From NCBI RefSeq assembly GCF_009914755.1, contig NC_060934.1: a stretch of 64,000 nucleotides of DNA. One strand, given 5' to 3'. Below are positions 18,421-18,730 of the stretch, piece after piece; position 1 is the first letter of the stretch; each line of letters starts with the position of its first letter. Origin of the DNA: the human T2T-CHM13v2.0 reference genome, Homo sapiens. The notes beneath the pieces were generated by a model. It saw nothing but the letters and a program-made list of their open reading frames with translations. It was not told the DNA's origin and did not search any database. The translations under genes were made by a program, and so were the position numbers.

Positions 18421-18730
18421 ATTATTATTATTATTTTTTTTTTTTTTGAGATGGAGTCTCAGTCCGTCGCCAGGCTAGAGTGCAGTGGCGCGATCTCGGC
18501 TCACCACAACATCCCCCTTCCAGGTTCAAGTGACTCTCCTGCCCCAGTCTCTCAAGCAGCCAGGACCACAGGCATATGCCACCCACCATGCCAAGCCAAT
18601 TTCTGCATTTCTAGTAGAGACGGGGCTTCACCACCTTGGCCAGGATGGTCTCAATCTCCTGACCTCATGATCTGCCCACCTCGGCCTCCCAAAATGCTGG
18701 GATCACAGGCATGAGCCATGGCACCCAGCC
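18421..18730 (-). mobile_element. AluSc-like with A-to-G hypermutation on its sense strand
   Basis: gtcgccagg and aggatggtctc diagnostics; about 14 plus-strand T>C changes versus consensus. Confidence 0.9.

What the first reader, a model, noticed from the sequence alone, without database searches (positions are those of the whole stretch)
18421..18730. Alu with a genomically fixed ADAR (A-to-I) hyper-editing signature
Seen: against the AluSc consensus as I recall it, this antisense Alu has about 14 plus-strand T>C changes, which are A>G on the Alu/RNA strand. They lie at 18465, 18505, 18534, 18544, 18557, 18561, 18567, 18597, 18603, 18606, 18611, 18626, 18634 and 18704; for example gctaatttttgtatttttag reads gccaatttctgcatttctag. 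The same-subfamily Alu at 11193 shows none by eye. On the RNA strand, 13 of the 14 changed As have a non-G 5' neighbour, including two UAG contexts. Two of the changes (18505, 18561) would have created CpGs that now read CA, consistent with the changes being old. Established: ADAR edits Alu dsRNA, disfavours a 5' G and favours a 3' G, and reverse transcriptase copies inosine as G. Neither CpG decay nor APOBEC3 (G>A) produces this pattern. Inference: an inosine-rich RNA was retrotransposed, writing RNA edits permanently into the germline genome.
Basis: partly seen in the sequence, partly recalled or inferred. Interest (0 to 1): 0.93.

Follow-up and report, generated by a model that had tools for sequence, protein, structure and literature searches.

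The report
RNA edits fossilised in human retrocopies
This Alu repeat sits in a copy of a chromosome 7 stretch and differs from its source by 14 one-directional A-to-G changes, likely RNA edits by the enzyme ADAR that were reverse-transcribed into the germline, and five more human copies show the same stamp.

Summary
The Alu (18421-18730, minus strand) is the 5' part of an ~810-base copy of a unique chr7 locus 5.3 kb from MIR29A. The copy sits in an older L1 at an endonuclease site, and a younger L1 later split it. Against parent and consensus it has 14 of 60 A>G and 0 of 43 T>C; the parent body has none. 82 control Alus average 0.98, maximum 3. The changes follow ADAR's 5' rank U>A>C>G (AUC 0.84) and stop at the Alu edge. 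Site 18634 is ancestral, not an edit; 18659 was missed. Two pattern scans found five more stamped copies with unedited parents: the UQCRB, MRPL30 and HAUS2 regions, chr12 and chr1. In two of them both arms of an inverted Alu pair are changed on one strand. Best reading: ADAR-edited Pol II RNA, retrotransposed by L1 (0.88). Weak points: no close inverted partner at chr7, a very short target duplication, no primate orthologues available. Ten paper searches found no prior report.

The parts
18421..18730 (-). Alu (AluSc-type; label recalled, no Dfam library) with A-rich tail at 18421-18447 and 14 copy-specific A>G at 18465, 18505, 18534, 18544, 18557, 18561, 18567, 18597, 18603, 18606, 18611, 18626, 18659, 18704
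18731..18741 (-). 5' end of the copy: about 10 bases matching the parent's sequence just upstream of the Alu, joined to the host L1 through an A-run microhomology
18252..18420 (-). Unique 3' flank copied from C7:132188966-132189135 (92% identical)
16797..18251 (+). Younger 5'-truncated L1 inserted later into the copy; ~15-base target duplication at about 16782-16797 and 18252-18266; best relatives 95-96% identical
16466..16797 (-). Rest of the unique 3' flank copied from C7:132189121-132189441 (87% identical), ending near an AATAAA
16455..16465 (-). Short A-rich 3' end of the copy, merging with the A-run of the host L1 target site
15765..16454 (-). Host L1, 3' part; contiguous in L1 coordinates with 18742-19602; best relatives 91-93% identical
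18742..19602 (-). Host L1, upstream part, broken at a TT|AAAA endonuclease-type site seen intact in relatives

Best explanation
This Alu is the 5' part of an ~810-base copy of a chr7 locus and carries 14 A-to-G changes absent from that locus, likely inosines put in by ADAR on a plus-strand transcript whose Alu would have paired with an inverted Alu, then likely read as G by L1 reverse transcriptase as the RNA was inserted into the germline. Shown: parent and direction of copying, strand, the cluster, its restriction to the Alu, its ADAR-like context, the endonuclease-type target, and the later L1 insertion and CpG decay. Inferred: the enzyme; a Pol II transcript (probably intronic LINC00513 RNA); which inverted Alu was the partner; target-primed reverse transcription from a cryptic poly(A) site or an internal A-tract; an age of roughly 15-35 million years.
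For: The flank has one other genomic copy, C7:132188655-132189441; the window copy interrupts an L1 at TT|AAAA. Copy lineage 14 of 60 A>G and 0 of 43 T>C; parent body 0 A>G. Edited fraction by 5' neighbour: T 5/7, A 5/15, C 3/15, G 1/23, the order reported for ADAR1 and ADAR2 (PMC3113232 Table 3). Its coefficients rank the sites with AUC 0.84-0.87, p about 2-5e-5; control A>G changes are less ADAR-like, p=0.008-0.013. Flank A/G is 7 of 173 with AUC 0.33-0.38, and host L1 is 8 of 573, so the signal stops at the Alu. The parent flank has 7 T4+ runs (5 in the copy), against Pol III read-through. miR-29a lies in an intron of plus-strand LINC00513 (PMC10459839 Table 1), 5.3 kb from the parent. Five further copies have unedited parents. 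In chrX<-chr12 (14/56 and 12/41; T>C 0/96) and chr4<-chr15 (9/45 and 12/40; a third Alu 0/31) both arms of an inverted pair are changed on one strand. The MRPL30 3'UTR Alu pair is a catalogued editing target (PMC526178 Table S1).
Against: Only two inverted Alus lie in the 30 kb fetched around the parent: a right arm 2.9 kb away (76% identical) and a full Alu 14.3 kb away (81%), both beyond the copy's 3' end. Editing falls with distance (PMC526178). Enrichment in the part covered by the near partner is not significant (11/36 vs 3/24, p=0.09). The 3' G preference is not significant (7/23, p=0.24), and the 5' pattern also fits a simple W-A rule (AUC 0.76). The target duplication is only 3-5 As and the tail about 8 As. 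The flank has an unexplained parent-G/copy-A excess (12/86 vs C/T 1/57, p=0.015, post hoc) not seen in four other copies. No hit for the parent's coordinates in the ultra-edited EST supplements (coordinates recalled, 695 regions only). ADAR1 editing was not detected in L1 RNA itself (PMC5224506).
Confidence: 0.88

Rival explanations
1. An error-prone polymerase (pol eta-type A>G at W-A sites, or a sloppy reverse transcriptase) made the cluster during or after insertion.
For: 10 of 14 changes have a 5' A or T; a W-A rank gives AUC 0.76. The pol eta motif is recalled, not from a call.
Against: The excess stops at the Alu boundary: 14/60 in the Alu vs 7/173 in the flank of the same insert (p=4e-5). 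In the other copies, loops and an unpaired Alu are spared while paired arms of opposite orientation are hit on the same strand. CAG sites are changed 3/6 vs other CAN 0/9.
Confidence: 0.04
2. ADAR acted on the RNA:DNA hybrid during reverse transcription, not on folded RNA beforehand.
For: It would explain the lack of a close inverted partner at chr7. ADAR1 associates with L1 particles (PMC5224506). Activity on hybrids is recalled.
Against: The hybrid spans the whole insert, yet only Alu arms are changed. Deamination of the cDNA strand would read T>C on the RNA strand, and there are 0 of 43.
Confidence: 0.04
3. The template was an edited Pol III transcript from the Alu's own promoter that read through into the flank (Alu 3' transduction), edited in trans. 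This keeps ADAR but changes the RNA source.
For: The copy starts within about 10 bases of the Alu 5' end, and the chrX<-chr12 copy starts exactly at it. L077 looks like a solo Alu with its own target duplication and 7 A>G.
Against: 7 T4+ runs in the parent's ~480-base flank, the first 40 bases after the tail. About 10 upstream bases match the parent. Two of the five other copies are spliced mRNA copies.
Confidence: 0.1
4. Ordinary mutation, GC-biased conversion, conversion from another Alu, or an unknown G-bearing subfamily.
For: With about a million Alus (recalled), extreme tails occur; doubled rates give p=1e-5. The parent's 3' end differs from the copy in subfamily-type features, so conversion happens.
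Against: Control dispersion is Poisson-like and the copy's other changes are normal. GC bias would give T>C equally. The best 39 other hits are only 81-84% identical, and the four linker Gs occur together nowhere else. Four of four scan hits with 6 or more extra A>G turned out to be copies of other loci.
Confidence: 0.02

Closest known systems
APOBEC3-edited retroelements fixed in vertebrate genomes (PMC4866542, passages; PMC2873906, passages)
   Same: A host deaminase marks a retrotransposition intermediate, and the clustered, strand-specific changes are fixed in the germline; detected by parent and consensus comparison.
   Different: There it is C-to-U on cDNA, read as G>A, mainly in LTR elements. 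Here it is A>G on the RNA strand, confined to Alu arms, in L1-mobilised cellular RNAs.
ADAR hyper-editing of inverted Alus in Pol II transcripts (PMC526178, one section and passages; PMC3197674, passages; PMC3113232, passages and Supplementary Data 1)
   Same: A>G clusters in Alus, 5' U>A>C>G, TA hot spots, both arms of a pair; 23% of As here.
   Different: Known as a transient RNA change; here it is genomic and inherited.
Processed pseudogenes and other L1-mobilised cellular RNAs (PMC13174262, passages; PMC5408686, term search only)
   Same: Endonuclease-type target, A-tail, parent elsewhere; two of the extra cases are spliced mRNA copies.
   Different: Neither text mentions ADAR or RNA editing of the copied RNA. 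The window case derives from likely intronic, non-coding RNA with a minimal target duplication.
Edited-mRNA retroprocessing in plant mitochondria and kinetoplastids; ADAR-type A>G hypermutated retroviral proviruses (recalled, not read)
   Same: Edited RNA is written back into DNA by reverse transcription.
   Different: Other editing chemistry or viral RNA; not A-to-I edits of human nuclear transcripts fixed in the germline.

Membership tests
ADAR-edited Alu RNA signature | Cluster of A>G on one strand without T>C | tested here: met
   14/60 vs 0/43
ADAR-edited Alu RNA signature | 5' neighbour order U>A>C>G | tested here: met
   5/7, 5/15, 3/15, 1/23; 5' G depletion p=0.005; AUC 0.84-0.87
ADAR-edited Alu RNA signature | 3' G preference | tested here: inconclusive
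   7/23 vs 7/37, p=0.24; not seen in the pooled other copies, 20/130
ADAR-edited Alu RNA signature | Confined to duplex-forming sequence | tested here: met
   Alu 14/60 vs flank 7/173; loops and an unpaired Alu spared in other copies
ADAR-edited Alu RNA signature | Nearby inverted Alu in the parent transcript | tested here: inconclusive
   Partners at 2.9 kb (half) and 14.3 kb (full) only; met for the chr12, chr15 and chr2 parents
ADAR-edited Alu RNA signature | Parent sites catalogued as edited in RNA | tested here: inconclusive
   No hit in one small catalogue using recalled coordinates; the large site files were too big to read; met at gene level for MRPL30
L1-mediated retrocopy (TPRT) | Parent locus elsewhere; copy lacks the parent's flanks | tested here: met
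L1-mediated retrocopy (TPRT) | Insertion at a TT|AAAA endonuclease site | tested here: met
   Empty site read from 9 L1 relatives; motif as in PMC13174262
L1-mediated retrocopy (TPRT) | 3' poly(A) tail | tested here: inconclusive
   AATAAA, then a short A-rich end of about 8 As partly shared with the target
L1-mediated retrocopy (TPRT) | Target-site duplication of about 7-20 bases (range recalled) | tested here: not met
   Only 3-5 As duplicated, so filed as working like a TPRT retrocopy, not as a canonical one; the chrX copy has a 14-base duplication
APOBEC3-edited retroelement | Dominant G>A on the sense strand | tested here: not met
   3 non-CpG G>A vs 14 A>G in the Alu; flank G/A excess unpolarised, motif not enriched (8/11 vs 59% background)
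AluSc subfamily | Diagnostic positions against Dfam consensus sequences | not testable with these tools
   No Dfam library; shares two diagnostic deletions with 29 fetched copies; the name is recalled
Single ancient event | All Gs shared by primate orthologues | not testable with these tools
   No primate genomes held

The most novel reading that the evidence does not exclude
ADAR is a heritable germline mutagen acting through L1: the human genome holds a class of tens of retrocopies, and some solo Alus, that are single-molecule snapshots of A-to-I editing in ancestral primate germ cells or embryos. They show that heavily edited mRNAs and intronic RNAs are retrotransposed, and they give a stamp that identifies RNA-templated insertions even without a tail or target duplication.
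Probability: 0.7. Interest if true: 0.85.

Novelty: new variant of a known kind. Interest (0 to 1): 0.78.

Why it matters
Deaminase marks fixed in genomes are described for APOBEC on cDNA. A 2016 review says that a role of ADAR editing in Alu evolution by mutation had not been determined (PMC4982230), and editing was not detected in L1 RNA in cell culture (PMC5224506). Six parent-copy pairs now show the ADAR pattern in genomic DNA. If the reading is right, an RNA modification became inherited sequence, L1 reverse transcriptase copies inosine-rich RNA in vivo, and the copies record which transcripts and sites were edited in the germline millions of years ago. The class can be enumerated by a simple genome-wide screen. 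Such copies could also confound RNA-editing calls, because edited reads may map better to them than to the parent (inference).

Tried and rejected
Rfam scan of the window: 0 matches. A chr1 Alu (L043) first looked like a sibling; it has different changes, its own target duplication and no shared flank, and 3 of its 5 A>G were selected by my pattern, so I rejected it. L044 showed nothing beyond the selected sites. The Alu alone did not retrieve the parent; the unique flanks did. Seven of 23 scan hits with more than 15 other changes were set aside as old Alus whose subfamily Gs inflate the count. No parent search was run for those 7 or for 11 of the 16 younger hits. L077: no parent with flanks found. 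The pattern was mis-specified as a control and its single hit was ignored. Sense-antisense pairing with LINC-PINT or pri-miR-29 was rejected as the main duplex because the flank is unedited. A local strand bias was rejected: the host L1 shows none. Pfam support for the chr6 copy is weak (Ribosomal_L30, E=0.09); the MRPL30 name rests on that, on recall, and on the matching Alu pair distance (517 vs 512). HAUS2 is assigned by a Pfam-matching exon about 9 kb upstream on the same strand. Carmi, Church and Levanon 2011 (Nat Commun) is not held and could bear on novelty. The large hyper-editing site files of PMC4365171 could not be read. No gene hits in the one readable supplement of PMC4598827. A large random set of control Alus was not obtained.

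Full report
1. Observation. I built a consensus from 29 Alus sharing this copy's two diagnostic deletions, taken from the window and the best genome hits. For a null I scored 93 full-length Alus at 224 near-invariant non-CpG sites. The 88 controls change 2.2% of As to G and 2.8% of Ts to C; this copy has 14 of 59 and 0 of 42 (that count includes 18634 and leaves out 18659). Six old, diverged controls were then set aside. The other 82 have mean 0.98, variance 0.86, maximum 3, and the copy's other changes (10) match their mean of 9.1. Poisson p=3.5e-12. More conservative models give 1e-4 to 1e-5, so the count alone is not proof against a million-Alu search. The parent and context tests below carry the case.

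2. Anatomy. Self-comparison showed that a minus-strand L1 is split at one point: 19602-18742 and 16454-15765 are contiguous in L1 relatives. Between them lie the Alu, 170 unique bases, a younger plus-strand L1 with a ~15-base target duplication, 330 more unique bases and a short A-rich end. The unique parts match one other place in the genome, contiguously: C7:132188966-132189441. A search with that flank returns only itself and this copy. The chr7 locus has an Alu at the same position and continues as unique sequence on both sides, so it is the parent. Nine L1 relatives show the empty site as TT|AAAA, one of them with a substitution. The duplication is only 3-5 As. The copy begins about 10 bases upstream of the Alu, in an A-run shared with the target.

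3. Polarised changes. With the consensus as outgroup, the copy lineage has 14 A>G, 0 T>C, 3 non-CpG G>A and 4 non-CpG C>T. Two of the C>T sit next to new Gs, as expected if new CpGs decayed. The parent lineage has no A>G in the body and one in the tail. Site 18634 is shared with the parent and common among related Alus. In the flank, parent-A/copy-G is 7 of 173 and T/C is 4 of 154; the host L1 has 8 of 573 A>G. The signal is therefore confined to the Alu and lies on the strand that the junctions mark as the RNA.

4. Context. Edited fractions by 5' neighbour are T 5/7, A 5/15, C 3/15, G 1/23, the order U>A>C>G given in PMC3113232 (passages and Table 3). Scoring the 60 As with that paper's coefficients (Supplementary Data 1) gives AUC 0.84-0.87 and a log-likelihood of about -24, against -32.6 for uniform rates and -30.7 for control neighbour rates. 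The flank differences score 0.33-0.38. The 3' G preference is not significant. PMC526178 (section 11) reports that Alu editing hot spots are TA dinucleotides; 5 of 7 TA sites are changed here.

5. Source RNA. MIR29A and MIR29B1 map to the minus strand 5.3 and 6.0 kb from the parent. PMC10459839 Table 1 (passage) places miR-29a in an intron of plus-strand LINC00513 and within minus-strand LINC-PINT. Placing the parent inside LINC00513 also uses my recalled hg38 position of MIR29A. The edits require plus-strand RNA. Seven T4+ runs in the flank argue for Pol II. The duplex partner is uncertain: a right arm 2.9 kb and a full Alu 14.3 kb downstream are the only inverted Alus in 30 kb. Both lie beyond the copy's 3' end, so editing would precede 3' cleavage, or priming was internal. 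11 of 14 edits fall in the part the near partner covers (p=0.09).

6. Age (inferred). The copy postdates the host L1 (relatives 91-93% identical) and predates the inner L1 (95-96%). Parent and copy flanks differ at 35 of 470 sites. With recalled L1PA ages and rates this gives roughly 15-35 million years.

7. A class, not a one-off. A pattern demanding G at three TA hot spots gave 24 genome hits including this one. I fetched all 23 others. Seven old Alus were set aside; of 16 younger ones, 4 had 6 or more further A>G at unselected sites. I searched parents for those 4 and for L077, and found them for the 4. A second pattern gave 4 hits: 3 recaptures and 1 new, which also had a parent.

Polarised counts of copy A>G (three sites in each sense arm were selected by the pattern, none in antisense arms). 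chrX:114.35 Mb from chr12:68.41 Mb: 1.95 kb, 14-base duplication, arms 14/56 and 12/41, T>C 0/96, non-Alu 12/435 vs T/C 9/395. chr4:187.64 Mb from chr15:40.38 Mb (HAUS2 region): poly(A), arms 9/45 and 12/40, a third Alu 0/31, non-Alu 33/617 vs 20/602. chr6:56.87 Mb from chr2:99.65 Mb (MRPL30; spliced, poly(A)): 9/56 and 3/38. chr5:121.80 Mb from chr1:234.74 Mb: 385 bases with poly(A), 8/46. chrX:56.03 Mb from chr8:97.36 Mb (UQCRB by Pfam; spliced): 13/54, T>C 1/39, non-Alu 16/731 vs 17/712. Parent-lineage A>G is 0-2 per Alu. Unselected antisense Alus pool to 27 of 148, with ADAR AUC 0.68 (p=0.002). The MRPL30 3'UTR Alu pair is listed as edited in PMC526178 Table S1. L077 is a solo Alu with its own duplication and 7 A>G, 3 of them selected, and no parent found. 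The two patterns share one site, so recapture gives only a rough size: likely tens of elements.

8. Mechanism. A plus-strand Pol II RNA folded its Alu against an inverted Alu; ADAR converted about a quarter of the As; L1 ORF2p nicked a TT|AAAA site, primed on an A-rich 3' end, copied inosine as G, and joined the 5' end through an A-run. The parent, strand, cluster, context and target are shown. The enzyme, partner and priming mode are inferred. Same-strand changes on both oppositely oriented arms, with loops spared, are what an RNA duplex predicts and what polymerase error, GC-biased conversion or a subfamily allele do not.

9. Unexplained. The window flank has parent-G/copy-A at 12 of 86 vs C/T at 1 of 57 (p=0.015, post hoc), not seen in the four copies pooled (38/972 vs 50/912). 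It may be APOBEC3 action on the cDNA, drift in the parent, or chance; it cannot be polarised here.

10. Prior knowledge. Ten full-text searches (seven on the phenomenon, two on the locus, one on priming) listed no report of ADAR-stamped human retrocopies; I saw listings only for most papers. What I read: passages of PMC7186786, PMC4982230, PMC3197674, PMC5974252, PMC2873906, PMC526178 (plus one section and two Table S1 rows), PMC3113232 (plus one supplement), PMC10459839, PMC13174262, PMC4866542, PMC5224506, PMC4598827 and PMC5408686; the abstract of PMC6305415; the supplement list of PMC4365171. Subscription journals are not covered, and Carmi et al. 2011 (Nat Commun) was not held. The idea that edited RNA can be retrotransposed has precedents in other systems (recalled). 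I rate it a new variant of the known kind 'deaminase-edited retrotransposition product'.

Noticed in passing
L078:86-2024 (C23:114353991-114355929) vs L079: 1.95-kb copy of a chr12 stretch carrying both arms of an inverted Alu pair, both A>G-stamped on one strand; 14-base target duplication, almost no poly(A), starts exactly at the Alu 5' end. The cleanest example of the class.
   Followed up: yes
L082 vs L083 (C4:187.64 Mb from C15:40.38 Mb): Polyadenylated copy of the HAUS2 3' region; the paired Alus are stamped, a third Alu is not; the copy lacks about 150 bases at the end of the sense Alu.
   Followed up: yes
L080 vs L081; L091 vs L090; L084 vs L088: MRPL30 and UQCRB processed pseudogenes and a 385-base polyadenylated copy from chr1, each with a stamped Alu. 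The UQCRB copy's Pfam-matching frame has no internal stop.
   Followed up: yes
L086:1743-2025 (C23:135094168-135094450): Solo Alu with its own target duplication and 7 A>G at TA-rich sites; no parent found; the neighbouring inverted Alu is unchanged. May be an edited Alu RNA inserted by the standard route.
   Followed up: partly
window 16466-16797 and 18252-18420: Parent-G/copy-A excess (12 vs 1 C/T) in the flank; a possible APOBEC3 mark on the cDNA, unpolarised.
   Followed up: partly
window 19603-24075: The host L1 appears to have a 5' inversion with its breakpoint at 19602 (twin-priming type): the upstream L1 sequence continues on the plus strand.
   Followed up: partly
window 15457-15765: Another Alu sits directly at the host L1's A-tail on the same strand, with 1 A>G at invariant sites.
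   Followed up: no
C7:132188914-132188940: The parent Alu's 3' end lacks the one-base deletion and a variant that the copy shares with related Alus, suggesting later gene conversion of the parent.
   Followed up: no
L043:839-1115 (C1:224.02 Mb): Alu with 5 A>G (3 selected by my pattern) and 0 T>C, 62 bases from an inverted Alu; not significant.
   Followed up: partly
C7 parent region: LINC00513 is reported as linked to interferon signalling (PMC6305415 abstract); ADAR1p150 is interferon-inducible (abstract listing). A link to this insertion is speculation.
   Followed up: no
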